A DNA stretch of 64,000 nucleotides. It comes from Escherichia coli 042. Lineage in GTDB: Bacteria; Pseudomonadota; Gammaproteobacteria; Enterobacterales; Enterobacteriaceae. Shown in pieces: positions 42,982 through 56,472 of this stretch (the first letter of the stretch is position 1; each line of letters opens with the position of its first letter). Made by a program: the position numbers and the translations under genes. The stretch lies in assembly GCF_000027125.1 (NCBI RefSeq), contig NC_017626.1. One strand, written 5' to 3'. The notes beneath the pieces were generated by a model. It did not search any database, had not been told where the DNA came from, and saw only the letters and a program-made list of their open reading frames with translations.

Positions 42982-45029
42982 TGCGTGGCTCCTTGTACCT
43001 GTTCCTTGGCGGGCGTTAATGCCGGGGCTGTCCAGTCTGGCAAGCGGGCGAAAAGCTGGCAGACGTGTTGTTCCTGTTTTAATAAGGTGGGCAGGATGGC
43101 CTGCGAGGCGGGTGTCTCTTCAAGCGTTATTTGAGGAGAACGGCTGAGTGCGGTTGCCAGACCGGCAGCGTATTTCTCAAGTGCGTCGGCAAACTGACCT
43201 GCTCTGTCCGGCTGTAGTGCGTTATCCAGCGCCTGCGCCGAGTTCCAGGTTGCATCCCAGGCGTGAAGAATATCGCGGCCCTGACGAATAACCGTTTGCG
43301 AACGTTCAATCAGTAGAGCGCGTTCTTCGCTGTCCAGTTGACGCTCCAGCGCCACGCGTTGGAACATCTCTTCACAGGCATTAAACGCCGCATGCAGACC
43401 TATACGAATTTGCAGATAAGTGCGCAGAGCCGTGACTTCCTGCTGGCGTGGGATCCGCATTACTTTACTCAACATACCCAGCGCGCCAGCCAGTTTTTGC
43501 GGCAGTGTGCGCGCTTCACTTTCAGGCCAGACAAAGGTGTAAATCACCGCGGACACCACGGTACCAATGATGATACCCAGGGCGCGATCGCGAATTTCCA
43601 CCAGGTCGTACACTGGGCCAAAAACGTTTTCGAGCGTGGCGAGCGCGAAGGTGACCACCATCTGTGTGCCGATATAAGAAGAGCGTTCAGAGCTGGTGGC
43701 AATCCATGCGCCCAACAGGAAAATCGGTGCCAGCACAAACAGCAATTCGACAATATTGTCCAGCCAGGGCATGACCAGTAACGTGAATAACAGCGCCAGA
43801 ATTGCACCGAAGAAGGCACCGCCAAAACGCAGCGCCATTTTCTGATACGACGAACCAACATTCGGGTTAGCGACGATCACGCAGGTCAGCATACAGGTGT
43901 GAATGCCTTCCCAGTCCACGCCGCTGTAGAAGGTGTAACAGATCAAACAGGCGAGCAGCGTTTTTACCGCGTAGCGCATATAGTCTGGATTGGTAAAAGC
44001 GTCGGCGACCATTGATGGCGGTTTGGTGGCGGGCGTTGGCGGCGTATTCGGGTCCATCTGACCCAGTTGTAACAACGTCTGGCAGATATTCTCCAGGTTA
44101 CATTCCCGTGCCGCCATCGCTTCACTTTCAGTGATCCGCCAGTCGCTTTGCCAGCACTGACCTTCGGCAATGGCATGCTGCAGTTTGTTGATTTCTGAGG
44201 CTAATTTTTGCCGAAATTCAATAATTGCCTGAGAATCAGCAAAAGAGGTGGGATCGTAGCGATTCAGCGTCGAGTAAATGTAGGTTACCGTAGCCACACA
44301 GCTTTGCCACCATGCGCTCTGAGTTCGCCAGTTGGCATCGTCCGCGAGGCAAAAGACATTGAGTTTTTGCAGCGCCAGCGCCTCTCTTTCAATCCGCGTT
44401 TCGGGTAGCGGTGTGAGGCTGTCCGTCAGGTGGCTAATGGCATCATCAAGCCGATCATTAAGCGCCTGATGCATCTGCGTGATAGCGCGGCTGGGAAACC
44501 ACAGCACGCCGATTAACGTCATCAATAACGTCGGATAGAGGCCAACAACGATACACCACAGGGTTAAGCGCACGACCACTTCCGGATAGTCGAGCATGGC
44601 GGGGAAGGTTTGCCCGTAAATAGCGACAATGGCGACGGCGAAAAAGACCAGCCCCAACCGATGGGTGCGCATCAAAAACATACAGCCCATCAGGATCGGC
44701 CCGGCGATGATCAATCGGATCAACGGTTCGCCGTATGACCATTTGTAGATCAAAAACAGGCTGCCGATCTCCAGCATCGTGGCGACCACAAACAAGATCG
44801 CGACAAATTTGGTGTAAAACGCGTTCGACTGAATACCGTAAAACAGTACTGCCAGTGATAACGCCACAAAAGGGATCTCAAAAGTCATTGAGATCAGAAT
44901 CACCAGCAGGCAGCCTACCCAGAGTTGCATAGTCTGCGGCACGCGGCCTGGTCGCCGCTCGCTTAACTCTTCATGAAAGAACGCCAGCAGCCTGACCACC
45001 GGTAATGGCAGGGAGTTGAGCGCGCTCAT
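42978..45029 (-). CDS. mdtO: Inner-membrane efflux protein MdtO (aromatic acid exporter-like, 683 aa)
   Basis: Translation MSALNSLPLPVVRLLAFFHEELSERRPGRVPQTMQLWVGCLLVILISMTF...; overlaps mdtP start. Confidence 0.9.
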   Translation of the reverse strand: MSALNSLPLPVVRLLAFFHEELSERRPGRVPQTMQLWVGCLLVILISMTFEIPFVALSLAVLFYGIQSNAFYTKFVAILFVVATMLEIGSLFLIYKWSYGEPLIRLIIAGPILMGCMFLMRTHRLGLVFFAVAIVAIYGQTFPAMLDYPEVVVRLTLWCIVVGLYPTLLMTLIGVLWFPSRAITQMHQALNDRLDDAISHLTDSLTPLPETRIEREALALQKLNVFCLADDANWRTQSAWWQSCVATVTYIYSTLNRYDPTSFADSQAIIEFRQKLASEINKLQHAIAEGQCWQSDWRITESEAMAARECNLENICQTLLQLGQMDPNTPPTPATKPPSMVADAFTNPDYMRYAVKTLLACLICYTFYSGVDWEGIHTCMLTCVIVANPNVGSSYQKMALRFGGAFFGAILALLFTLLVMPWLDNIVELLFVLAPIFLLGAWIATSSERSSYIGTQMVVTFALATLENVFGPVYDLVEIRDRALGIIIGTVVSAVIYTFVWPESEARTLPQKLAGALGMLSKVMRIPRQQEVTALRTYLQIRIGLHAAFNACEEMFQRVALERQLDSEERALLIERSQTVIRQGRDILHAWDATWNSAQALDNALQPDRAGQFADALEKYAAGLATALSRSPQITLEETPASQAILPTLLKQEQHVCQLFARLPDWTAPALTPAKEQVQGATQ

Positions 45030-46060
45030 TATTGTGGCTCAAGATTAGCGACTGCCGAAGCGCCGATGCGGAACATTTCCGGGTCAGGTTTATCAACCAT
45101 GATTTTGACCGGAAAACGCTGGGCAACGCGGACCCAGTTAATAGAACGAGACACTTTCGGCAGGCCGCCCAGCACCAGGCCGCCGTCATCCGGTAGCACG
45201 CCGTAGCCAATCGAATCCACTTTACCCTCGAAGGTTTTGCCGCTGTCGCTCATCAGGCGAATCGTTGCGGGTGTACCTGAGCGAATATTTTTCAGATCGG
45301 TTTCGCGGAAGTTGGCGATCACGTACCAGTGACGAGTGTCGATTAGGGTAAAAATTGGGCGCATGGCAGAAGCAAATTGCCCGACGGAGGTTTTGAGGGA
45401 AATGACCCGGCCATCAAACGGCGCGCGAACGGTCGCCATTTCCAGATGCAGTTTGGTCAACGCAATATCCGCTTCCACTGCCGCACGCTGGGCAACTAAT
45501 GCATCCACGCCGCTGACGGCGCTGGCGGCTGACTGCGCCTGCAACAATACGGCATTAAGATCGGCTTCTGCGGCGCGCTGCGCGGTTCTCGCGCGGTCAA
45601 CATCTTCCGCTGAGACGAAACCTTCTTTCAGTAATGGCTCGGTGCGGCGTAATGTATCACTGGCCTGTTTCGCGGCGGCACGGGCTTTTTCTACCGTGGC
45701 ATTAACCGAGTCGGCACCAAACTGTTGTGCGTCAACGCTACGCTGGGTGAGCATAATTTGCTTATCCAGCGCCGCGAGGGAGGCTTCGGCTTTCGCCAGA
45801 TTGGCTTCGTACGGGCGCGGGTCGATGCGGAACAGCAAATCGCCCTGTTTCACCGCCTGGTTGTCGGTGACCGCCAGTTCTACAATGCGACCGCTGACTT
45901 CCGGCACCACATCAATGGTATCTGCTGACGCGTAAGCGTCATTAGTTGATGGCGCACTGTCTACGCGCCAGATAACGAAAACAAGGGCAACCAGCGCCAA
46001 CGCAACCACTAACAGAGCAGGGAATTTACTGCGAGGAGCTTTTTTCGGCGTACTTTCCAT
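45029..46060 (-). CDS. mdtN: Membrane-fusion protein MdtN (HlyD family, 343 aa)
   Basis: Translation MESTPKKAPRSKFPALLVVALALVALVFVIWRVDSAPS...; coiled-coil periplasmic adaptor. Confidence 0.9.
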   Translation of the reverse strand: MESTPKKAPRSKFPALLVVALALVALVFVIWRVDSAPSTNDAYASADTIDVVPEVSGRIVELAVTDNQAVKQGDLLFRIDPRPYEANLAKAEASLAALDKQIMLTQRSVDAQQFGADSVNATVEKARAAAKQASDTLRRTEPLLKEGFVSAEDVDRARTAQRAAEADLNAVLLQAQSAASAVSGVDALVAQRAAVEADIALTKLHLEMATVRAPFDGRVISLKTSVGQFASAMRPIFTLIDTRHWYVIANFRETDLKNIRSGTPATIRLMSDSGKTFEGKVDSIGYGVLPDDGGLVLGGLPKVSRSINWVRVAQRFPVKIMVDKPDPEMFRIGASAVANLEPQ

Positions 46061-46078
46061 GAGCGCGTCTCAAATAGA

Positions 46079-46354
46079 TTAGAAAAATGCCAGCCAGAAC
46101 AGCATGGCGTAGAGAGCAAAAAGGGCGGTATAAATAATTCCGACAAATGCCAGATTGATATTTGCCCGCTGAATAATTCGCCTCGTGATGAGCGTCAAAA
46201 TAAGGCTGGCAATGGCGCAGAAAAACCAGCTGGGATAATAAGCGCCGATCACCGGGATTGCCGGAGATAATGAGCATCCCGAAACCATGAAGACGGGAAT
46301 TATCCAGACTGTTTTTTTGAGTTGCATCGCCATGCGAGAGAGAACTGTTGGCAT
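46079..46354 (-). CDS. ytcA: Small lipoprotein YtcA (91 aa), first gene of the ytcA-mdtNOP operon
   Basis: Translation MPTVLSRMAMQLKKTVWIIPVFMVSGCSLSPAIPVIGAYYPSWFFCAIASL...; ATG (cat) at 46352..46354. Confidence 0.7.
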   Translation of the reverse strand: MPTVLSRMAMQLKKTVWIIPVFMVSGCSLSPAIPVIGAYYPSWFFCAIASLILTLITRRIIQRANINLAFVGIIYTALFALYAMLFWLAFF

Positions 46355-46524
46355 ATTAAATACATCCTGTCTGCTGCGAACAATATCTGTAGTGAATATC
46401 AATATCCATTGAAGGCGTCAGTATGGCTATTTTCTCGATGAATAAAAATAGCTTTATTCAGCCACCGCATTCATAACTTATATATTTTATGTATTAATTT
46501 GTTGTATGTATTTTTAAAATAAAT

Positions 46525-46556
46525 GCTTTTGGGGGCTTAAGCGCCCCCAAAAGTGA
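46525..46556 (-). terminator. Rho-independent terminator after yjcS
   Basis: Minus-strand hairpin ttttgggggcgc-ttaa-gcccccaaaa followed by a T-rich run. Confidence 0.55.
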
Positions 46557-46562
46557 GTGGCA

Positions 46563-48548
46563 TTAATTTGGGGTTACGATATTCACCCACAAATCGAAAT
46601 TATCCAGACAGGCAATAATTTCTTCCAGTTTCGCGCCATTGCCAATAATTTTGGCTTTCTTCGCTTTTACCAGATCCGCCATTTTGGCTTGTGCGGTCAG
46701 CACGGCGTGAAGATCTTCACGGCTGATGTAGAAAGAGGCGTTGGCTTCAGGTTGCAGCGTTTTACGGTAGTTAAGCACGCTATCGTTCAGCGTCAGGTTG
46801 AGGTTATCGCCGTTGCTCATATTGAAGTTCAGGCTGATATTCTTACCTGCGGCTTTCGCGCTATCGAGGCGAACGGCCATAAAGTCGAATAGCATTTCGA
46901 CCGACATTCCGCGAAGGGTGTCCGGGAAACCGGTGGAGCTGTGGCTGAACTTATGTACCCCTTCGCGCAGCTCTTTCGCGCCGGTCAGGTAGAAACCGCG
47001 CCAGGTGGCGGACTCGGCCTGATAGCCCAGCTGTTCAAAGTTATTCGCTTGCAGATTCTTCGCGACCTGGTCACCAGGGTTGGCGGCAATCACCTGTTTC
47101 AGCAGTTCTGCCGACCAGCGGTAATCACCTTGCTTGTTCGCTTCTTGCGCCAGGTTGATGACACGGGCAGAACCGCCCAGCGCCTGCACGTAACGTTTAC
47201 CCATCTCCACCTGACCATACGGATGCAGGTTAGCCGGGTTACCGTCGTAATAGCCAAGATAGAAGTTATACACCGCGCGGGCGTTGTGGCTGACAGAACC
47301 GTAATAGCCGCGGCTGGCCCAGTTATTGGCAAGCGCAGGCGGCAGCTTAATCATGTCGCCGATTTCATTCATGGTGTAGCCCTGGTTTGCCAGGTGCAGG
47401 GTCTGGTCGTGAATGTACTTGATGGTATCGCGATATTTACCAATATAATCATTGATATGCTTATTGCCCCAGACCGGCCAGGTGTGCGGCATAAACAGTA
47501 CTTCCGCGTCATTACCCCACATATCCAGCGTTTCGTTCAGATACTCGGTCCACTTGCTGGTGTCGCGGGTTTTCGCGCCGCGCAGAGTGTAGAAGTTGTG
47601 CAGGGTATGCGTGGCGTTCTCGGCGGTACACAGGGCTTTCAGAGCCGGAATATAGAAGTGCATTTCGGCTGGCGCTTCGCTACCCGGAGTCATCAGGAAG
47701 TCAAATTCCAGGCCGTCGATAATCATCTTCTCGCCAGTTCTGACGATAGTTTTAGTCGGTGCAATAATGCTCGGGTCGCCCGTTGCCAGCGTCACGCCCA
47801 GGCCGTTGCCCACGTTGCCTTGCGCGTTGTGCGGCAGTAACAGACCGTAAGAGTAGAGCGCACGGCGGCTCATGATGTTACCCGCCAGCACGTTTTCGCT
47901 GATGGCTTCGTCCATAAAGCCTGCCGGAGCGATCACCTGCACTTTGCCGGATTTAACATCCGCTTCAGAGATAATGCCTTTCACACCGCCATAATGGTCG
48001 GCGTGGCTGTGGGTGTAAATCACAGCAACAATCGGTTTTTGCGGACGATGCTGGAAGTAAAGGTCAAGTGCGGCTTTTGCGGCAGGCGGCGTCACCAGCG
48101 GGTCGATAACAATAATGCCTTTTTCGCCTTCTACAAATGTAACGTTAGAGATATCTTGGCCGCGCACCTGATACATTTTATCGGTGACTTTGAACAGGCC
48201 AGAAATACCGTTGATTTGCGACTGACGCCACAGGCTGGGGTTTACGGTTTCCGGCGCAGCGGCATTAATATCAAATTTGTAATCGTCTGCGCGGTAGTAA
48301 ACTTTACCGTTCGCATCACGCAGAATACCTTCATCCAGCAGCGGGGCGATAAATCCACGCTGGGCATCGTCAAAATCTTGACGATCGCTAAACGGTAATG
48401 ATTTGGCGTAATTCTGATTAATCTGTTGGGTATATTGAGTGGCGGCTTTCGCTTCCTCTTTCGCGTTAGCGGTATTTACCATCATGCCGCTGGCGGCAGT
48501 TAACGCAATAACAATCCTGCTCAAACGGAATAACCGAGAGTTATTCAT
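46563..48548 (-). CDS. yjcS: Alkyl/aryl sulfatase YjcS (metallo-beta-lactamase fold, 661 aa)
   Basis: Translation [29 protein letters not shown]... with the [10 protein letters not shown] motif; ATG (cat) at 48546..48548. Confidence 0.9.
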
Positions 48549-48800
48549 ATAAATCTCCATTTATCATTTATGTCGTAAATATGTAGTCCATGCAAAATAC
48601 GTCATTTGAAGCTGGCGTTATCATAATTGGGAATTTGCGACTTTAATAAGTGGAAGTGTGAGCGGAGCGAGCCATTTTATTAGGCATTTGTGCTGAAGAG
48701 GGAAAAGTACGCGAATTTATTATCTCTGTAAATAATATGAGGTATTTTATATATTTATTATATATATTGTACTTCGGCAAATACTGAGCACAATTAATCA

Positions 48801-49118
48801 ATGCAACCGGTGTTTCTTTTTAAAAAACGTACCGGAGCAATGGGCGGTCATGTCGCTGGCACCGCAGGATTCTGTGTTGCTGTGCCAACCTTTTATTCAT
48901 GGTCAATGAGTGAGGGGATTGATAAAGAAACCAGGTCGTCAGAGCGCACTGATTATCCGCATTACGCCAGTGACGTTGCACTGGCTTTTGGTTCACGAGT
49001 GGTTGGCCTCGAACTGGCAAAAATGATTGTGGATGCGTGGCTGGGCGCGCAGTACGAATGCGGTCGTCATCAACAACGCGTGGAGGCGATTACGGCAATA
49101 GAGCAGCGGAAAAATTGA
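48801..49118 (+). pseudogene. rpiB: Remnant of ribose-5-phosphate isomerase B: C-terminal RpiB-like blocks fused to unrelated 5' sequence; catalytic core missing
   Basis: Translation contains SSERTDYPHYAS and AFGSRVVGLELAKMIVDAWLGAQYE.GRHQQRVEAITAIEQR as recalled for RpiB, but lacks the Cys-containing central region and the native N-terminus; sits where alsK-alsB, rpiR and rpiB lie in K-12. Confidence 0.6.
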
Positions 49119-49186
49119 GATTCATCCACTACTTGCATGGATGAGTAATGACTAATATGGATAGAGTTTCTTTTTGAGGTTGGCTA

Positions 49187-49516
49187 ATGAAACGCTTTCC
49201 GCTATTTCTTTTATTCACCCTGCTCACGCTGTCCACCGTTCCGGCCCAGGCCGATATTATCGACGACACCATTGGCAATATTCAGCAGGCGATTAACGAT
49301 GCTTATAACCCTGACCGTGGGCGAGACTATGAAGATTCGCGCGACGACAGCTGGCAGCGTGAAGTGAACGACGATCGGCGCAGACAATATGACGATCGCC
49401 GCCGCCAGTTTGAAGATCGCCGCAGGCAGCTGGACGATCGCCAGCGCCAGCTTGATCAGGAGCGTCGGCAACTGGAGGATGAAGAGCGGAGAATGGAAGA
49501 TGAGTATGGGCGGTGA
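49187..49516 (+). CDS. yjdP: Secreted small protein YjdP (109 aa) with a periodic Arg/Asp/Gln-rich repeat
   Basis: Translation MKRFPLFLLFTLLTLSTVPAQA... then DDRRRQ(Y/F/L) heptad-like repeats. Confidence 0.8.
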   Translation: MKRFPLFLLFTLLTLSTVPAQADIIDDTIGNIQQAINDAYNPDRGRDYEDSRDDSWQREVNDDRRRQYDDRRRQFEDRRRQLDDRQRQLDQERRQLEDEERRMEDEYGR

Positions 49517-49550
49517 TGTTGAGTCTAGAGCAGGCATCGCCCCTCACCCA

Positions 49551-50321
49551 TCACTCCACCCCAATCTCCACCCCAATCTCCATCCCATCAAACCCCGCCT
49601 CAAACCCCGACGGCAGTGCGTTTTCCATCAGCCACGCATCAAACTGGTGGCTGATATGGGTCAGAATCACCCGTGGCGAGCGGATAACCTGATTCAGCGC
49701 AAGCACGGTATTTAAATCACAGTGATTACGCGGTGCATCCTCGCGCGGCGGGTGGCTGCAATCAATCACCATTACCTGTGGCTGATTATTGCGTAAAAAT
49801 TTCAGCGTTTTTTCCGGCAGGCCTGCGGTGTCAGACAGCCACGCCACCCGGCTATGTGCCGTTTCCAGTAAATAGCCGAAAGTGAGTTTCGAATGATTGA
49901 GCGGCAGCGGCGTGACCTGTAATCCCTGCAAATCAAACACTACAAACGGTTCCACCGTGTGGCTGAAATCAAGCAGGCCCGGATGTTTAAACAGATCGTC
50001 GCAGCCCTGTTCATCCGGCGGGCCGTAGACCGGGATCGAATCGCCCACGCCCCAGCGCAGCGGAAACAGCCCCTGCACGTGATCCATATGGTAGTGCGTC
50101 AGCAAAAACTGCTGGAACGATCCGGGCGACCAGCGATCGGCGAGATCGTGCAGCCCGGCGTCGATCAGGGTGATCGCGTCGTTAAACTTCACGACGCCGC
50201 TGCATGGCTGGCGGCGATACTGTGGTGAGCGCCGCGCTCTGACGCAGGCCGCGCACTCGCAGCCCCATGCCGGAACGCCCTGTGCGCCGCCGGTGCCGGT
50301 GAGCGTGAGGGTCAGACTCAT
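49551..50321 (-). CDS. phnP: Phosphoribosyl 1,2-cyclic phosphate phosphodiesterase PhnP (256 aa here)
   Basis: Metallo-beta-lactamase motif THYHMDH; C-terminus carries a 12-bp tandem duplication (EIGVEIGVE). Confidence 0.9.
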
Positions 50322-50322
50322 G

Positions 50323-50757
50323 TTACAGCGCCTTGGTGAAGCGGAAGTGACTCTGCTCGTAGCCTTCTCGCAGATAGAAACGGTGCGCGTCGTGGCGCTT
50401 CACGTTGGTCGAAAGCTCAGTCATTTCGGCCCCGGCCTGGCGGGCTTCTTCTTCTGCCCACGCCAGCAACTTGCTACCGACGTTCAGGCCGCGCGCCTGC
50501 GGCATCACCACCAACTCCTGAATTTCGCCGATCCAGTTGACATGATGCAGATGAAACTGCAAATGCAGGCCGATCATGCCGACAACTTCGCCATCCAGTA
50601 GCGCCAGATGGTAGCGCATGTTTGGGTCGCGCAGGTTGGCGTTAAAGCCCACGCGAAACGCGTGGTGGTCAAACTCCGCCTGTTTTAGCTCACAAATCAG
50701 CGCGTAAACTGCGTCGGTGTCGTACTGCGTAGCCGGGCGAAGCTCACAAGCAGGCAT
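50323..50757 (-). CDS. phnO: Aminoalkylphosphonate N-acetyltransferase PhnO (144 aa)
   Basis: GNAT-fold translation [34 protein letters not shown]... Confidence 0.9.
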
Positions 50758-51301
50758 GGTGTTTCTCCTTCTGATGAATCAGCGTCAGCAGCTTGTCGAC
50801 CGACTGGCGCAGGCTGCCGTCATTATTGAGCGTAAGACAATCCTGAGGAGTATAGCGGGCAGCGCGTGCCAGTCGGGCGTTAATTTCACTGGCATTTTCA
50901 CGACCACGGTTTTCGAGGCGCTGGCGCAGGATCTCCGGCGAAACCTGTAAACAAACGGGCAGCAGCGCCGATTGATAGCGCGCCCGCGCCTGCGGCAGAT
51001 GGGCGCGTGAGCCGTTGACCATCACGTCAAATCCAGCGTGCAGCCAGAGGTCAATCTCGACGCCGATGCCATAATACAGGCCGTTGGCGTGCCAGCTTAA
51101 GGCCAGAAGGTTCTGCCCCGCGCGGGTAAAAAACTCCTGCTCGCTCAGGGCGATATGGTTTTCACTTCCGGCGCTGGCGGCGCGCGTGATGTAGCGATGC
51201 GCTACCAGTAGCTGAGTTTGTTCCCGCTGGCGAAGTTCCGTCAACAGACTGTCTTTTCCGGAGCCAGAGGCCCCCATTAACCAAATCAGTTTTCCCGTCA
51301 T
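50744..51301 (-). CDS. phnN: Ribose 1,5-bisphosphate phosphokinase PhnN (185 aa)
   Basis: P-loop [12 protein letters not shown]; overlaps phnO. Confidence 0.9.
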
Positions 51302-52437
51302 CAGAACACCCTTTTACCCTGACGCCAGACGTGGTCGATATGAATGTGGTTGCCCTTGCGATGCGCCAGCACCAGGTCGGCGCGTTTGCCCTCGCCAATC
51401 ACCCCGCGATCCTGAAGATTAAGCGCCTGCGCCGGATTTTTAGTCACCAGCTTCACCGCCTGCGGCAGCGTAAAGCGGTTGCTCTCGTCATCGGCGACGC
51501 GAAATGCCGCATCGAGCAGGCTGGCGGGGTAGTAGTCGGAAGAGAGGATATCCAGCAGGCCAAGCTGCGCCAGTTCACTGGCCGCCACGTTGCCGGAGTG
51601 CGAACCGCCGCGCACGATATTCGGCGCGCCCATCAGCACGTTCATGCCATGCTTGCGCGAGGCTTCTGCCGCTTCGAACGTGGTGGGAAATTCGGCGATC
51701 ACGCTGCCAAGCTGGTGGGATTCGGCAACGTGCGCGTGCGTGGCGTCATCGTGGCTGGCGAGGGCAATGTGTCGCGCGCGGCACATTGCGGCGATGGTTT
51801 CGCGATTTGGCTGCGACCAGCGTGCGGCGAGCGCCAATTGCTCTTCTTCGTACTGCTGCATCTGCGCATCGGTGAGGGAATATTTGCCCTGATAATATTC
51901 GCGATACTTCTCGCGATTGGCGAACTGGCGCTGGCCTGGCGAGTGGTCCATCAGCGATACCAGCGTCACCGGTTCGCGCTGCACCAGTTTTTCAAACAGC
52001 GGCAACGTGGTGTGGTGCGGCAGTTCGCAGCGCAGGTGCAGGCGGTGCTCGGCGCGGTTGACGCCGCGTTTCTGCGTCTCTTCGATGGCGTTGATCATCT
52101 TCTCCAGATTCTCCAGCCGATCGCCGCCGTCGCGCACATCACCAATCGCCACGGCGTCCAGTACGGTGGTGATGCCGCTTGCCACCATCAGCGCGTCGTG
52201 GCTGCTCATCGCCGAATGGGCGGGCCAGTCGACTTTCGGGCGCGGGGTGAAGAATTTATCGAGGTTGTCGGTATGCAGCTCAATCAGGCCGGGTAGTAGC
52301 CAGCCACCTTCGCCGTCCATCGCTTCCGGCTGGCGGCTCTGGCTTTCGGCAAAGGCGCGAATTTCGCCATCCTGTACTTCCAGTGAACCGTGCACCACTT
52401 CGTTTTCCAGCACCAGTTTGACGTTATTGATAATCAT
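51301..52437 (-). CDS. phnM: RPnTP diphosphatase PhnM (amidohydrolase family, 378 aa)
   Basis: Translation [33 protein letters not shown]... Confidence 0.9.
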
Positions 52438-53114
52438 GAAGAGGCTCCCATCGGGTGCAGGCGGTCGGCGACGTCATTGCGTACGGCTTCGTCATGGAAG
52501 ATACCGACGATGGCTGCGCCACGGGCTTTAGCTTCGAGAATCAGTTCCACCACCGCGGCGCTGTTTTTGGCGTCCAGCGAGGCGGTAGGTTCGTCGAGCA
52601 GCAGAATGGGGTAGTCGACGATAAAGCCACGGGCGATGTTGACGCGCTGCTGTTCGCCGCCGGAGAAGGTCGATGGTGCAAGGTGCCACAGGCGTTCAGG
52701 CACGTTCAGGCGCGTCAGTAATCGGGCGGCTTTAGCGGCGCAGGCTTCACGCGGTACGCCGGTATCGAGCAGAGGCTGCATCACCACTTCCAGTGCCGAA
52801 ATACGCGGGATGACGCGCAGAAACTGGCTCACCCAGCCGATGGTGGTTTTGCGGATCTCCACCACTTTGCGGGCTGGCGCGGTGACCAGGTCTACCCATT
52901 CCTCACCGTGTTTGATCTGGATTTGCCCTTCGTCGGGCAGATAGTTGGCGTACAGCGAGCGCAGCAGGGTTGATTTTCCGCTGCCGGAGTGGCCGTGAAG
53001 CACCACGCATTCGCCTGCGTTGACGGTGAGCGAGGCACGTTGTAAGACGGGCAGGCGCACGCCGTTTTGCTGGTGCAGGATGAAGGTTTTACTGACGTTT
53101 TGTACGTTAATCAT
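52434..53114 (-). CDS. phnL: C-P lyase ABC-type ATPase PhnL (226 aa)
   Basis: Walker [13 protein letters not shown] (cat) at 53112..53114. Confidence 0.9.
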
Positions 53115-53147
53115 TTTTCGCCTCGTGGTTCGCATATTGGGGATCGG

Positions 53148-53220
53148 CGCGCGCATTGCCCCTCACCCTAGCCCTCTCCCCTCTGGGGAGAGGGCCGGGG
53201 TGAGGGGACCAGCGCGCACG
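53148..53220. repeat. GC-rich nested palindromic intergenic element between phnK and phnL (boxC-like)
   Basis: gcgcgc..cccctcaccc..ccctctcccc-tct-ggggagaggg..gggtgagggg..gcgcgc: perfect 10-bp inner stem nested in an outer stem. Confidence 0.7.
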
Positions 53221-53230
53221 GTGTTGCAAC

Positions 53231-53989
53231 TCAATTCTGCAAAACCGATGACACCAGCAGCTGGGTATACGGATGATGCGGGTCGTCGAGCACGCGGTCG
53301 GTTAACCCACTCTCCACTACTTGCCCCTGCTTCATCACCAGCAAACGGTCCGCCAGCAGGCGGGCGACGCCAAGATCGTGGGTAACAATCACTACCGCCA
53401 GGTTCAGCTCCACCACCAGGCCGCGCAGCAGGTCGAGCAGGCGCGCCTGCACCGACACATCCAGCCCGCCGGTTGGTTCGTCCATAAACACCAGCTTCGG
53501 ATGCGTCACCAGGTTGCGGGCAATCTGCAAACGCTGCTGCATGCCGCCGGAAAAGGTGGTTGGCAGGTCGTCGATCCGGTTAGCGGGAATCTCGACCTCT
53601 TCCAGCCACTTCTGCGCGGTGGCGCGAATATCGCCGTAATGACGCGCCCCGGTCGCCATCAGCCGCTCGCCGATATTGCCGCCTGCCGACACCTGGCGGC
53701 GCAGGCCGTCGAGCGGATGCTGATGCACCACGCCCCATTCGGTGCGCAGCAGGCGACGGCGATCGGCCTCGCTCATGCCATAGAGGGAACGGTTTTCATA
53801 GTGAATCTCCCCTTGCTGCGGCGTCAGACGCGCGGAAATTGATTTCAGCAGCGTGGTCTTCCCGGAGCCGGACTCCCCGACGATGCCCAGCACTTCCCCC
53901 GGCCATAAATCAAAAGAGACATCGCTAAAGCCTTTGCCCGGCGCGTAAAGGTGGGTCAGGTTATTGACCGAAAGTAAAGGTTGATTCAT
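53231..53989 (-). CDS. phnK: C-P lyase ABC-type ATPase PhnK (252 aa)
   Basis: Walker A GESGSGKTT; ATG (cat) at 53987..53989. Confidence 0.9.
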   Translation of the reverse strand: MNQPLLSVNNLTHLYAPGKGFSDVSFDLWPGEVLGIVGESGSGKTTLLKSISARLTPQQGEIHYENRSLYGMSEADRRRLLRTEWGVVHQHPLDGLRRQVSAGGNIGERLMATGARHYGDIRATAQKWLEEVEIPANRIDDLPTTFSGGMQQRLQIARNLVTHPKLVFMDEPTGGLDVSVQARLLDLLRGLVVELNLAVVIVTHDLGVARLLADRLLVMKQGQVVESGLTDRVLDDPHHPYTQLLVSSVLQN

Positions 53990-54831
53990 TGGTTTTTTGC
54001 CTCGCTCTGTTGGCGGCAATAATCGGTATCGGAGCAGACAAACATGCGGTTTCCGGCGTCATCCAGCACCACTTCGTCGAGATAGCTGTGGGTCGATCCG
54101 CAGATGGCGCATGGCTCATCCCACTGCTGAACGGTGAACGGGTGATCGTCGAAATCGAGGCTTTCCACGCGGGTAAACGGCGGCACCGCATAGATGCGCT
54201 TCTCGCGTCCTGCGCCGAACAGCTGCAGGGCGGGCATCATGTTCATTTTCGGATTATCGAATTTTGGGATCGGCGATGGGTCCATGACGTAGCGCCCGTT
54301 CACCTTCACCGGATAGGCATAAGTGGTGGCGATATGACCGAAGCGGGCGATATCTTCATACAGTTTCACCTGCATCACGCCGTACTCCTCCAGCGCGTGC
54401 ATAGTGCGGGTTTCCGTTTCGCGCGGCTCGATAAAGCGCAGCGGTTCCGGGATCGGTACCTGGAAAATAATGATCTGATCTTCGGTCAGCGACGTTTCGG
54501 GGATGCGGTGGCGGGTCTGGATAAGCGTCGCATCGTCCGTACGTTCAGTGGTGTTTACCCCGGTCACGCGCTTAAAGAAGTTGCGAATTGATACGGCGTT
54601 GGTGGTGTCATCCGCACCCTGGTCAATCACCTTCAACACGTCGCTTTCGCCAATCACGCTGGCGGTAAGCTGGATACCACCAGTTCCCCAGCCGTACGGC
54701 ATCGGCATCTCGCGCCCGCCAAACGGCACCTGATAACCGGGGATCGCCACCGCTTTTAAGATGGCGCGGCGGATCATGCGTTTGGTCTGCTCGTCGAGGT
54801 AGGCAAAGTTGTAGCCGCTCAGATTAGCCAT
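53986..54831 (-). CDS. phnJ: C-P lyase catalytic subunit PhnJ (radical SAM-like, 281 aa)
   Basis: Translation MANLSGYNFAYLDEQTKRMIRRAILKAVAIPGYQVPF...; C-terminal Cys cluster CAICGS..C..C. Confidence 0.9.
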   Translation of the reverse strand: MANLSGYNFAYLDEQTKRMIRRAILKAVAIPGYQVPFGGREMPMPYGWGTGGIQLTASVIGESDVLKVIDQGADDTTNAVSIRNFFKRVTGVNTTERTDDATLIQTRHRIPETSLTEDQIIIFQVPIPEPLRFIEPRETETRTMHALEEYGVMQVKLYEDIARFGHIATTYAYPVKVNGRYVMDPSPIPKFDNPKMNMMPALQLFGAGREKRIYAVPPFTRVESLDFDDHPFTVQQWDEPCAICGSTHSYLDEVVLDDAGNRMFVCSDTDYCRQQSEAKNQ

Positions 54832-55888
54832 GGTTCTGCTCCTGTTGCAGACGTTTGAGTAGCTCCAGTTCGGCCTGGAAATCGACGTAGTGCGGGAGTT
54901 TAAGGTGCGAGACAAAGCCTGCGGCTTCGACGTTGTCGGCATGCGCCAGCACGAACTCTTCATCCTGCGCCGGGCCTGTCGCGTGCTCGCCGTACTCCGG
55001 GGCTTGTAGAGCGCGGTCAACCAGCGCCATCGCCATCGCTTTGCGCTCGCTCATGCCGAACACCAGCCCGTAGCCGCGCGTGAAGTGCGGCGGCTCATCC
55101 GGCGGGTCGATAAAACCGTTGACCATTTCACATTCGGTCATCAGCAGTTCGCCGACGTTCACCGCAAATCCCAGCTCTTCCGGCACAATCGACACGTCGA
55201 TATAGCCGCTGCGGATTTCGCCTGCGAACGGATGATTGCGTCCGTAACCACGCTGGGTGGAGTAGGCCAGCGCCAGCAAATAGCCTTCGTCGCCGCGCAT
55301 TAATTGTTGCAGGCGGGAGGAGCGTGAGCAGGGGTAAACCGGCGGCGTGCGGGTGATGTCATCCGGCTGTGCGCCGCTATCCTCCTCAAACTTCGCCAGC
55401 CCCTGACGCGCCAGCAGGCTGAAAACGTGCGGCGACGGCTGTTGTGCGCTGTCGGCGGTGGTCAGCGTCGGCGCTTCGCCGTTTGCCAGCAGGGTGAAAT
55501 CGAGCAGGCGATGGGTGTAGTCGTAGGTTGGGCCAAGCAGCTGGCCGCCGGGAATATCTTTATAAACCGCTGAAATACGCCGTTCGAGACGCATCTCCGT
55601 GGTGTCGAGCGGCTCGCTTACCGCGAGCTTAGCCAGCGTGGTGCGGTAAGCGCGTAGCAGGAAAATCGCTTCGACGTTATCGCCGCTGGCCTGTTTCAGC
55701 GCCAGCGCCGCCAGTTCGCGGTCGGCAATGCCGCCTTCGGTCATCACGCGATCTACTGCAAGATTAAGCTGCTGTTCAATCTGGGCGACGCTCAGTTCAG
55801 GCAAATCGGTATTGCCCCGGCGTCGGCTCTCTTGCAGGGCGTGGGCGGCGTCGATCGCCTTCTCGCCCCCTTTCACGGCAACGTACAT
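54824..55888 (-). CDS. phnI: C-P lyase core subunit PhnI (354 aa)
   Basis: Translation [41 protein letters not shown]... Confidence 0.9.
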   Translation of the reverse strand: MYVAVKGGEKAIDAAHALQESRRRGNTDLPELSVAQIEQQLNLAVDRVMTEGGIADRELAALALKQASGDNVEAIFLLRAYRTTLAKLAVSEPLDTTEMRLERRISAVYKDIPGGQLLGPTYDYTHRLLDFTLLANGEAPTLTTADSAQQPSPHVFSLLARQGLAKFEEDSGAQPDDITRTPPVYPCSRSSRLQQLMRGDEGYLLALAYSTQRGYGRNHPFAGEIRSGYIDVSIVPEELGFAVNVGELLMTECEMVNGFIDPPDEPPHFTRGYGLVFGMSERKAMAMALVDRALQAPEYGEHATGPAQDEEFVLAHADNVEAAGFVSHLKLPHYVDFQAELELLKRLQQEQNHG

Positions 55889-56472
55889 CAGCACACCTCC
55901 ACATGAGTGGTTCGCGGGATAGCCAGCAGCCGCTCGCCGCAGGTCAGGATCAGGTCGATGCCGAGCGGGAACGGGTGCGGGCGCTCGGTAAGTTCGTGCA
56001 GAATGCACTCCGGCAGCTGCGGGGCGATCATTCGTTCTTCGGCAATACCCGCGCCAGTAAGGCGCAGCATGCGCCCGCCGCTCAGGCTGACGACCTGTAA
56101 AATCAGCGTCGCGCCCGCTTCTGGCGCAACAGCGGTGCCGCTGGAAAGGGCGTTAAGCTGTTCGCTGGAAATCGCCTCATCCGTTACCGCGAAGGTCGCC
56201 TGTTCCGGCTGGCTGACCAGCGGCGCGTTGGTATGAAAACGCAGGCTCTGGCTGACGATATCGTTACTTAATGGCGCAGAAAGCCACACCGGCGTGTCGT
56301 TATCGGCCAGCGTCAGCAGCACGCTGGTGGTGGCGATATTCAGTGGCTGCCAGCCGCGCTTGAGCTGATGCAGGGCGACAATCACGCCCGGCTCGCTCAT
56401 GGCCTTTAACAGGCGACGAAAACTGTGCTGGGCATCCTGCACGGGAAGCATAAAAGCGGTTTCCAGGGTCAT
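55888..56472 (-). CDS. phnH: C-P lyase core subunit PhnH (194 aa)
   Basis: Translation [34 protein letters not shown]... Confidence 0.9.

What the first reader, a model, noticed from the sequence alone, without database searches (positions are those of the whole stretch)
48561..49186. Deletion scar replacing alsK-alsB, rpiR and most of rpiB; a chimeric rpiB remnant ORF remains
yjcS is followed after about 620 bp directly by yjdP, whereas K-12 has roughly 8 kb (als operon, rpiR, rpiB) between them. The remaining 105-codon ORF (48801..49118) keeps RpiB-like C-terminal blocks (SSERTDYPHYAS..., AFGSRVVGLELAKMIVDAWLGAQYE.GRHQQRVEAITAIEQR) fused in frame to unrelated AT-rich 5' sequence, with the catalytic central region missing. 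This strain therefore probably lacks D-allose catabolism and RpiB, and the left junction lies in 48561..48930.
Basis: partly seen in the sequence, partly recalled or inferred. Interest (0 to 1): 0.45.

Follow-up and report, generated by a model that had tools for sequence, protein, structure and literature searches.

The report
Common E. coli als–rpiB deletion scar
Between yjcS and yjdP this E. coli carries a widespread, already catalogued deletion allele that removed the D-allose operon and gutted rpiB; the leftover 105-codon reading frame is a dead remnant that databases name as an isomerase, so the finding is correct but ordinary.

Summary
Compared with K-12, the yjcS–yjdP interval (7,270 bp) is 638 bp here. 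Two deletions account for this. One of about 6.55 kb removes alsK, alsE, alsC, alsA, alsB, alsR (rpiR) and about the first 80 nt of rpiB. The second is a separate in-frame 159-bp deletion inside rpiB (RpiB residues 54-106), flanked by a 6-bp direct repeat, CTGGCT. A 78-bp AT-rich segment found only in this allele supplies the ORF's ATG. The 105-aa ORF keeps RpiB residues 31-53 and 107-149 only. It lacks Cys66, Thr68 and His99 and scores below both NCBIfam RpiB cut-offs. Its variable sites fit neutral change (8 nonsynonymous, 4 synonymous), and frameshifted versions circulate. The same scar is in about 1,569 of 5,426 complete E. coli genomes, including E. coli W, which is published as allose-negative. 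About 3,407 genomes keep als-rpiB, and about 447 match neither; the one examined, O157:H7, carries a different sugar island at the site. E. whittamii and another divergent Escherichia lineage have als-rpiB, so the scar is derived. It is a known presence/absence polymorphism. The minor points of interest are that RefSeq names the remnant as an isomerase and that the DNA inside the scar is unusually divergent.

The parts
46563..48560 (-). yjcS (alkyl sulfatase), the intact left-flank gene. The K-12-equivalent start codon is at 48548.
   Evidence: tblastn gives 98.5% identity to K-12 YjcS over 661 aa. The DNA is 95% identical to K-12 up to 48772.
48549..48772 (.). Conserved part of the yjcS-proximal intergenic region. 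It is shared with als+ genomes and with O157:H7.
   Evidence: Alignment to K-12, ST131 and GN03139 runs to 48772-48774, and to O157:H7 up to 48768.
48773..48850 (.). A 78-bp AT-rich segment found only in the scar allele. It holds the ORF's ATG (48801) and a T/A homopolymer tract (48813-48827) that is frameshift-prone in the population. Its origin is unknown.
   Evidence: It is absent from the als+ loci of K-12, ST131, GN03139 and the divergent lineage L020. In E. coli complete genomes it occurs only together with the scar, once per genome. It has no significant similarity to the end of the O157 island. Indels within the tract are seen in L015-L019.
48851..48902 (.). Diverged remnant of the DNA immediately downstream of alsK, reaching the alsK stop codon. 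This is the left edge of the large deletion.
   Evidence: 79% identity to K-12 L001 4825-4876. The local alignment score is 49, against a shuffle mean of 16.1, sd 2.0 and maximum 26.
48903..48916 (.). Junction of the ~6.55-kb deletion (alsK to about rpiB nt 80). Assignment of a few bases to either side is ambiguous.
   Evidence: Ungapped comparison with K-12 rpiB shows 8 of 8 mismatches at 48903-48910 and then homology. The L020 alignment suggests that the last alsK codons may extend to about 48916.
48911..48986 (+). rpiB 5' fragment (rpiB nt 84-159, RpiB residues about 29-53). It is diverged from K-12.
   Evidence: 87.5% identity to K-12 over 80 bp. There are 9 differences in 70 nt, affecting 8 codons of which 4 change the amino acid. 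It shares three states with the divergent L013 rpiB allele.
48981..48986 (+). CTGGCT, the single retained copy of the 6-bp direct repeat that flanks the internal 159-bp in-frame deletion (RpiB residues 54-106).
   Evidence: K-12 has CTGGCT at L001 11504 and at 11663, 159 nt apart, and the window has one copy.
48987..49118 (+). rpiB 3' fragment (RpiB residues 107-149 plus the stop codon). It is nearly identical to K-12.
   Evidence: The window has 3 differences in the 138 nt 48981-49118, which include the CTGGCT repeat copy, and the commonest scar allele has 0.
48801..49118 (+). The 105-codon chimeric remnant ORF, best read as a pseudogene. Residues 1-39 are novel, 40-62 equal RpiB 31-53, and 63-105 equal RpiB 107-149.
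   Evidence: NCBIfam scores are below the curated cut-offs. Pfam matches only model positions 102-138, plus a weak match at 26-50. RefSeq annotates it as 'RpiB/LacA/LacB family sugar-phosphate isomerase'.
49187..49516 (+). yjdP, the intact right-flank gene.
   Evidence: 98.2% identity to K-12 YjdP over 109 aa.

Best explanation
The interval is a fixed-form deletion allele ('scar') of the E. coli als-rpiB locus. An ancestor had yjcS-alsKECAB-alsR-rpiB-yjdP. A deletion of about 6.55 kb removed everything from the alsK stop codon to about nt 80 of rpiB. A second deletion of 159 bp, between two copies of CTGGCT and therefore microhomology- or slippage-type, removed RpiB residues 54-106. The allele also carries a 78-bp segment of unknown origin. 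By chance the pieces lie in frame behind an ATG in that segment, which gives a 105-codon ORF with no catalytic residues. This ORF is a pseudogene remnant. Cells with this allele lack the AlsBAC transporter, AlsK, AlsE, AlsR and RpiB. They are therefore expected to be unable to grow on D-allose and to rely on RpiA alone for ribose-5-phosphate isomerisation. Shown here: the anatomy, the absence of the genes from the window, the population frequency, the absence of a second rpiB copy in genomes that carry the scar, and the derived status of the scar. Inferred: the order and mechanism of the two deletions, non-expression and non-function of the ORF, and the phenotype of this particular strain.
For: Piecewise homology to K-12 defines both deletions and the repeat. 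No als genes are present in the window. The same structure, at 95-100% identity over the 218-bp core, is in 1,569 of 5,426 complete genomes (1,567). The deleted 6.5 kb is found in 3,407 other genomes. Genomes matching the 218-bp core have essentially one place each (4,982 places in 4,980 records), so scar genomes have no second rpiB. als-rpiB is intact in E. whittamii (L014) and in a further Escherichia lineage whose yjcS is only 83.5% identical (L013/L020), so als-rpiB is the ancestral state. The remnant scores 73.9 bits against the TIGR01120 cut-off of 138.65 and 58.7 against the TIGR00689 cut-off of 88.3. Pfam covers only the C-terminal 37 model positions. Cys66, the catalytic base, and His99 lie in the deleted residues 54-106 (alignment; residue roles from PMC4783025). 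Of 12 variable ORF sites in 7 alleles, 8 are nonsynonymous, and pairwise dN/dS is mostly about 0.5-1.9. Frameshifted versions are called as 70-aa and 92-aa proteins on at least 130 and at least 21 contigs. No sigma-70-like promoter was found in 48400-49300 (0 found, 2.1 expected by chance), and the native rpiB promoter region is deleted. E. coli W has the same scar and is reported allose-negative (PMC3032704).
Against: The 105-codon frame is intact in most genomes sampled: all 7 aligned alleles, plus E. coli W's annotated 318-nt CDS. It is also less variable (3.8% of sites) than the adjacent intergenic DNA (7.1%), so weak constraint cannot be strictly excluded from so few sites. The 78-bp segment is unexplained. 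Only 64 kb of this genome is visible, so absence of als or rpiB elsewhere in this particular strain rests on the population counts. The promoter scan is a crude consensus test.
Confidence: 0.9

Rival explanations
1. The 105-aa ORF is a functional new small protein, a domesticated RpiB fragment, kept by selection rather than a pseudogene.
For: The frame is intact in all 7 aligned alleles despite up to about 4% divergence. RefSeq annotates it as a CDS in every listed scar genome. ORF sites vary less than the upstream intergenic DNA.
Against: The ratio of 8 nonsynonymous to 4 synonymous variable sites is close to the neutral expectation. Frameshifts in the T/A tract destroy the first 13-35 codons in lineages seen on at least 150 contigs. 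No promoter-like site was found, and by direct reading of the sequence there is no convincing Shine-Dalgarno sequence before 48801. The retained pieces are two non-contiguous parts of a Rossmann-like fold without its core. With only about 12 substitutions in 318 nt, an intact frame is expected by chance.
Confidence: 0.04
2. The short form is the ancestral empty site, and the als-rpiB block was inserted into it in the K-12-like lineages.
For: The interval is a variable spot that holds three alternative contents (als-rpiB, the scar, and the O157 sugar island).
Against: The scar contains two non-contiguous pieces of rpiB and a piece of the alsK-downstream DNA, which an empty site could not have. 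als-rpiB is present in the same position in E. whittamii and in the L020 lineage.
Confidence: 0.01
3. The scar arose outside the main E. coli lineages, or is as old as the species, and has spread or persisted by homologous recombination through its flanks. On this reading it is an old trans-lineage polymorphism rather than a recent loss.
For: The pieces trapped between breakpoints are 16.4% divergent from K-12 (20 of 122 sites) against 3.9% in the flanks (Fisher p = 4.5e-7). The 5' rpiB piece shares three states with the divergent L013 allele, while the 3' piece is identical to K-12. One structural form occurs in strains conventionally assigned to different phylogroups (assignments from my own knowledge, not tested): O26, O111 and W; strain 042; and Shigella-named records.
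Against: The sample is very small at 122 bp. Relaxed constraint inflates divergence in a pseudogene. No progenitor als+ locus carrying the 78-bp segment was found. This reading refines the main explanation rather than competing with it.
Confidence: 0.4
4. The interval is an assembly or collapse artefact of this one sequence.
For: None.
Against: An identical architecture is present in about 1,569 independent complete genomes.
Confidence: 0

Closest known systems
E. coli K-12 als regulon with rpiB (alsK-alsE-alsC-alsA-alsB-alsR / rpiB; b4084-b4090)
   Same: It occupies the same chromosomal position between yjcS and yjdP. The window retains the DNA just downstream of alsK, rpiB nt 84-159 and rpiB nt 313-450.
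   Different: All six als genes, the alsR-rpiB regulatory region, rpiB codons 1 to about 27 and rpiB codons 54-106 are missing, and a 78-bp segment is present that K-12 lacks.
The same locus in E. coli W (ATCC 9637), NC_017635.1 4571973-4572290, protein WP_001183287.1
   Same: The scar architecture and the 318-nt ORF are identical in form. W is published as lacking alsBACEK and as unable to catabolise allose (PMC3032704).
   Different: WP_001183287.1, the protein annotated in W, differs from the window protein at 6 residues (T30A, G39V, E43D, D58E, C87G, K104R). The window's exact protein is the one recorded as CBG37279.1 of E. coli 042.
O157:H7 allele of the same interval: a 9.2-kb island with a D-lyxose/D-mannose isomerase, ketose-bisphosphate aldolase, carbohydrate kinase, sugar ABC transporter and two-component system
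   Same: It occupies the same yjcS-yjdP slot, and its left boundary lies within 4 bp of where the window diverges from K-12 (48768 against 48772).
   Different: It is a replacement by other genes and has no rpiB remnant. Homology to the window resumes only at 49200, inside yjdP, at 92.5% identity.
Full-length RpiB (PF02502; TIGR01120), solved and characterised for E. coli
   Same: The C-terminal 43 residues are 95-100% identical to K-12 RpiB, and residues 31-53 are recognisable.
   Different: It lacks Asp9/His10, Cys66, Thr68, His99 and the whole central beta/alpha core, and it scores below the family cut-offs.

Membership tests
RpiB/LacA/LacB sugar-phosphate isomerase family (PF02502; TIGR00689; TIGR01120) | Whole-protein score at or above the curated NCBIfam cut-off | tested here: not met
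   TIGR01120 scores 73.9 bits against a cut-off of 138.65. TIGR00689 scores 58.7 against 88.3. K-12 RpiB scores 255.7 and 211.1.
RpiB/LacA/LacB sugar-phosphate isomerase family (PF02502; TIGR00689; TIGR01120) | A contiguous domain of about 138-145 residues | tested here: not met
   Pfam matches model positions 102-138 (E = 3.8e-8) and, weakly, 26-50 (E = 1.9). Positions 1-25 and 51-101 are absent.
RpiB/LacA/LacB sugar-phosphate isomerase family (PF02502; TIGR00689; TIGR01120) | Catalytic base Cys66, with Thr68 and His99 (E. coli numbering) | tested here: not met
   Residues 54-106 are deleted. The roles of Cys66 and His99 in EcRpiB are taken from PMC4783025. The role of E. coli Thr68 is from my own knowledge; the paper states it only for the T. 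cruzi equivalent, Thr71.
RpiB/LacA/LacB sugar-phosphate isomerase family (PF02502; TIGR00689; TIGR01120) | N-terminal substrate-binding Asp9-His10 | tested here: not met
   RpiB residues 1 to about 28 are replaced by unrelated sequence. The role of these residues is from my own knowledge of the EcRpiB structure papers.
Gene remnant / pseudogene left by deletion | Homology to a functional gene at the syntenic position, with essential parts missing | tested here: met
Gene remnant / pseudogene left by deletion | Relaxed selection (dN/dS near 1) and disrupted variants in the population | tested here: met
   Variable sites are 8 nonsynonymous to 4 synonymous, and pairwise dN/dS is mostly about 0.5-1.9. 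Frameshift variants are seen in L015-L019. The sample is small, so the dN/dS part on its own is only consistent with relaxed selection, not decisive.
Gene remnant / pseudogene left by deletion | Loss of the native promoter and translation signals | tested here: inconclusive
   The alsR-rpiB intergenic region is deleted, and the consensus scan finds no promoter-like site. A consensus scan cannot exclude weak or read-through transcription.
D-allose utilisation (als) regulon | Presence of alsB, alsA, alsC, alsE, alsK and alsR | tested here: not met
   No homologues are present in the window. Scar genomes and als-bearing genomes are essentially disjoint sets.
Microhomology- or slippage-mediated deletion (the internal 159 bp) | A short direct repeat at both ends in the intact sequence and one copy at the junction | tested here: met
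   CTGGCT occurs at K-12 L001 11504 and 11663, and a single copy is at window 48981-48986.

The most novel reading that the evidence does not exclude
The yjcS-yjdP interval may hold an old multi-allelic polymorphism: als-rpiB, the scar, and the O157-type sugar island. On this reading the scar allele would be at least as old as E. coli itself, or would have been introgressed from a divergent Escherichia lineage. Recombination would have homogenised its flanks up to the breakpoints, while the short trapped pieces (48773-48980) kept the deep divergence. That would point to long-term maintenance of D-allose users and non-users, by niche-dependent or balancing selection.
Probability: 0.3. Interest if true: 0.35.

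Novelty: already known. Interest (0 to 1): 0.15.

Why it matters
The finding matters mainly for bookkeeping. About 29% of complete E. coli genomes, and records named as Shigella, carry a 105-aa CDS that RefSeq names 'RpiB/LacA/LacB family sugar-phosphate isomerase' and some submitters name 'ribose-5-phosphate isomerase'. The protein lacks the catalytic residues. Automated metabolic reconstructions could therefore wrongly credit these strains with RpiB activity, and the CDS should be flagged as a pseudogene. The allele is also a simple genotypic marker for inability to use D-allose. D-allose is of some current interest as a rare sugar with reported effects on gut inflammation (mentioned in PMC13192267). 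The evolutionary side-issue, three deep haplotypes at one slot, is mildly interesting for population genomics but is not new in kind.

Tried and rejected
1. I asked whether the 78-bp scar-only segment comes from the left end of the O157:H7 island. By eye it looked similar, but the local alignment score of 18 is within the shuffle range of 16.4 +/- 2.1, so I rejected this.
2. I searched one genome per species (GTDB collection) for a progenitor rpiB allele, or for the scar in other species, using a 33-nt exact pattern from the 5' rpiB fragment. It gave 0 hits.
3. A degenerate codon pattern for GRHQQRVEAI gave only two loci, both als+ and rpiB+. They were useful as outgroups, but no scar was found outside E. 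coli/Shigella. Other Escherichia species may simply use different codons, so their state remains unknown.
4. I looked for the 78-bp segment in als+ loci (K-12, ST131, GN03139, L020). It is absent from all of them.
5. An Rfam scan of 48400-49700 at E <= 1 found nothing.
6. The promoter scan found none. It reported a terminator-like hairpin at 48966-48985 followed by TTTTGG. The stem is native rpiB sequence, and the T-run is native rpiB sequence brought next to it by the 159-bp deletion. I treat it as incidental.
7. My first blast against 'K-12' accidentally used locus L002, the closest scar genome, because one file held two records. I noticed this and repeated the run.
8. I first recorded the internal deletion as 150 bp. 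The repeat-to-repeat distance shows it is 159 bp.
9. I did not run structure prediction. A fragment without the core would give an uninformative model, and the sequence evidence is already decisive.

Full report
**What is in the sequence.** The window carries mdtN-ytcA-yjcS on the minus strand and then a short interval. After it come yjdP on the plus strand and phnP-phnO-phnN-phnM on the minus strand. K-12 MG1655 has 7,270 bp between the yjcS and yjdP start codons, holding alsK, alsE, alsC, alsA, alsB, alsR (rpiR) and rpiB. The window has 638 bp. tblastn with the K-12 proteins finds YjcS (98.5% identity) and YjdP (98.2%) intact. It finds no AlsK, AlsE, AlsC, AlsB or AlsR anywhere in the 64 kb, only generic ABC-ATPase similarity for AlsA, and a gapped match of RpiB residues 29-149 to 48912-49115.

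**Anatomy of the scar.** Piecewise alignment to K-12 gives the following segments:
- 48000-48772 is yjcS plus the proximal intergenic DNA, at 95% identity.
- 48773-48850 is 78 bp with no K-12 counterpart.
- 48851-48902 matches the 52 bp that end at the alsK stop codon, at 79% identity. The local alignment score is 49, against 16 +/- 2 and a maximum of 26 for shuffles.
- 48903-48916 is the junction.
- 48911-48986 is rpiB nt 84-159, at about 87% identity.
- 48981-49549 is rpiB nt 313-450 and onward through yjdP, at 97.4% identity.

There are therefore two deletions. The large one removes about 6.55 kb (K-12 locus coordinates 4877 to about 11433). The small one removes exactly 159 bp, or 53 codons, corresponding to RpiB residues 54-106. 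It lies between two copies of CTGGCT, of which one remains at 48981-48986. This is the signature of a microhomology or slippage deletion.

The 105-codon ORF at 48801-49118 starts at an ATG inside the 78-bp segment. Its residues 1-39 are novel, residues 40-62 correspond to RpiB 31-53, and residues 63-105 correspond to RpiB 107-149.

**The ORF is not an isomerase.**
- It scores 73.9 bits against TIGR01120 (cut-off 138.65) and 58.7 against TIGR00689 (cut-off 88.3). K-12 RpiB scores 255.7 and 211.1.
- Pfam PF02502 matches only model positions 102-138, plus a weak match at 26-50.
- Cys66, the catalytic base of E. coli RpiB, and His99 (H99N lowers kcat 26-fold; PMC4783025) lie in the deleted block.
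- The N-terminal Asp9-His10 region is also gone.
- The native promoter region between alsR and rpiB is deleted. A consensus scan finds no sigma-70-like site in 48400-49300, where 2.1 would be expected by chance. Rfam finds nothing.

**Population picture.**
- Among 5,426 complete E. coli genomes, 1,567-1,569 carry this same architecture. The 218-bp core (48773-48990) is fully covered at 95-100% identity, in one place per genome.
- The 6.5 kb that is deleted here is present in 3,407 genomes.
- About 447 genomes match neither. The one examined, an O157:H7 strain, has a different 9.2-kb sugar-utilisation island in the same slot. It encodes a D-lyxose/D-mannose isomerase, an aldolase, a kinase, an ABC transporter and a two-component system, and has no rpiB remnant.
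- The three counts sum to about the total, and the core query finds 4,982 places in 4,980 records. Scar genomes therefore do not hold a second rpiB.
- One genome shows an independent IS1-associated loss of yjcS and als.
- RefSeq annotates the remnant as 'RpiB/LacA/LacB family sugar-phosphate isomerase'.
- The window's exact protein is on record as CBG37279.1 of E. coli 042, on 244 contigs. The commonest variant, WP_001183287.1, is on at least 1,000 contigs, some of them named Shigella sonnei or S. flexneri.
- No complete genome in the collection is closer than 98.6% to the window over 12 kb.

**Direction of change.** E. whittamii (L014) has the intact als-rpiB-yjdP arrangement as far as the fetched locus reaches, into alsK. 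A further Escherichia lineage whose yjcS is only 83.5% identical to the window's (L013/L020) has intact yjcS-als-rpiB-yjdP. The scar itself contains rpiB and alsK-downstream fragments. The scar is therefore derived, and the 'empty ancestral site' alternative is excluded.

**Is the ORF under selection?** In 7 scar alleles the ORF has 12 variable sites, of which 8 are nonsynonymous and 4 synonymous. There are no indels, and pairwise dN/dS is mostly about 0.5-1.9. This fits neutrality, although the sample is small. In addition, versions with +1 or -1 indels in the T/A tract at 48813-48827, and one at about 48891, exist in public assemblies. They are called as 92-aa and 70-aa proteins on at least 21 and at least 130 contigs. 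The first third of the frame is therefore dispensable. I conclude that the ORF is a pseudogene remnant with about 0.9 confidence, leaving about 0.04 for a functional small protein.

**Phenotype.** E. coli W carries the same scar (NC_017635.1 4571973-4572290). It is reported to be unable to catabolise allose, which the authors explain by the absence of alsBACEK (PMC3032704). For the window's strain the same phenotype is inferred, not shown. That RpiA suffices for growth and that rpiB is normally repressed by RpiR/AlsR is established K-12 knowledge (Sorensen and Hove-Jensen 1996, cited).

**An oddity.** The DNA trapped between the breakpoints is much more divergent from K-12 than the flanks are: 20 of 122 sites (16.4%) against 52 of 1,343 (3.9%), Fisher p = 4.5e-7. 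The 5' rpiB piece differs from K-12 at 9 of 70 sites, while the 3' piece differs at 0-3 of 138 (p = 0.003). The 5' piece also shares three states with the divergent L013 rpiB allele. The 78-bp segment is absent from every als+ locus examined.

The simplest reading has two parts. The scar is old, or arose on a divergent haplotype. Homologous recombination with als+ strains has since refreshed its flanks right up to the breakpoints, while the short inner pieces cannot be exchanged. Relaxed constraint also contributes to the divergence. This is suggestive only, because the sample is 122 bp.

**Verdict.** The feature is a common, already sequenced and annotated presence/absence polymorphism whose phenotypic consequence is published for at least one carrier. 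It is of low interest, apart from the misleading database name and the modest evolutionary curiosity.

Noticed in passing
window 49517-49600 (yjdP-phnP intergenic region and the phnP 3' end): The window lacks about 112-118 bp of GC-rich, REP/Box-C-like palindromic repeat that K-12 and the closest genome (L002) have between yjdP and phnP. It also has a 12-bp tandem duplication (CCACCCCAATCT) in the phnP 3' end. PhnP therefore ends ...[11 protein letters not shown] (256 aa) instead of ...GMEIGVA (252 aa), and the intergenic gap shrinks from about 146-158 bp to 34 bp.
   Followed up: partly
L003/L005 (E. coli O157:H7 strain 7409, NZ_CP038423.1 5073813-5082963): The yjcS-yjdP slot holds a third allele. 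It is a 9.2-kb island with a response regulator, carbohydrate kinase, ketose-1,6-bisphosphate aldolase, D-lyxose/D-mannose isomerase, sugar ABC transporter and hybrid sensor kinase. yjdP is only 92.5% identical there. About 447 of 5,426 genomes match neither als nor the scar and may carry this state, although only this one genome was examined.
   Followed up: partly
L004 (E. coli TBU0218_10-1CC, NZ_AP027716.1): This genome shows an independent loss at the same locus. An IS1 sits between a truncated ytcA and a 5'-truncated rpiB (411 nt), with yjcS and the whole als operon gone. yjdP and phnM are pseudogenes there.
   Followed up: no
L020-L023 (CP057162.1 and relatives; the divergent Escherichia lineage represented in GTDB by strain SCPM-O-B-8794): In this lineage yjdP is followed directly by yjdN, yjdM (phnA), a dynamin-family gene, yjcZ and proP. 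The whole phnC-phnP phosphonate operon is therefore absent, although als-rpiB is intact. The genome is only 4.37 Mb.
   Followed up: no
window 48813-48827 and about 48891; loci L015-L019: The homopolymer tract GTTTCTTTTTAAAAAAC inside the remnant ORF varies in length between isolates (+1 or -1). This produces different gene calls of 105, 92 and 70 aa for the same remnant in public databases.
   Followed up: yes
window 48966-48995: The 159-bp deletion places a native rpiB hairpin (GCCAGTGACGTTGCACTGGC) directly before a T-run (TTTTGGTT). This gives an intrinsic-terminator-like site inside the remnant ORF. It is probably incidental.
   Followed up: no
window 44000-56000: No complete E. coli genome in the 5,426-genome collection is closer than 98.6% over these 12 kb, and the next best are about 97.7-97.9%. 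The source strain therefore belongs to a lineage that is poorly represented there. Its remnant protein is identical to that recorded for E. coli 042.
   Followed up: partly
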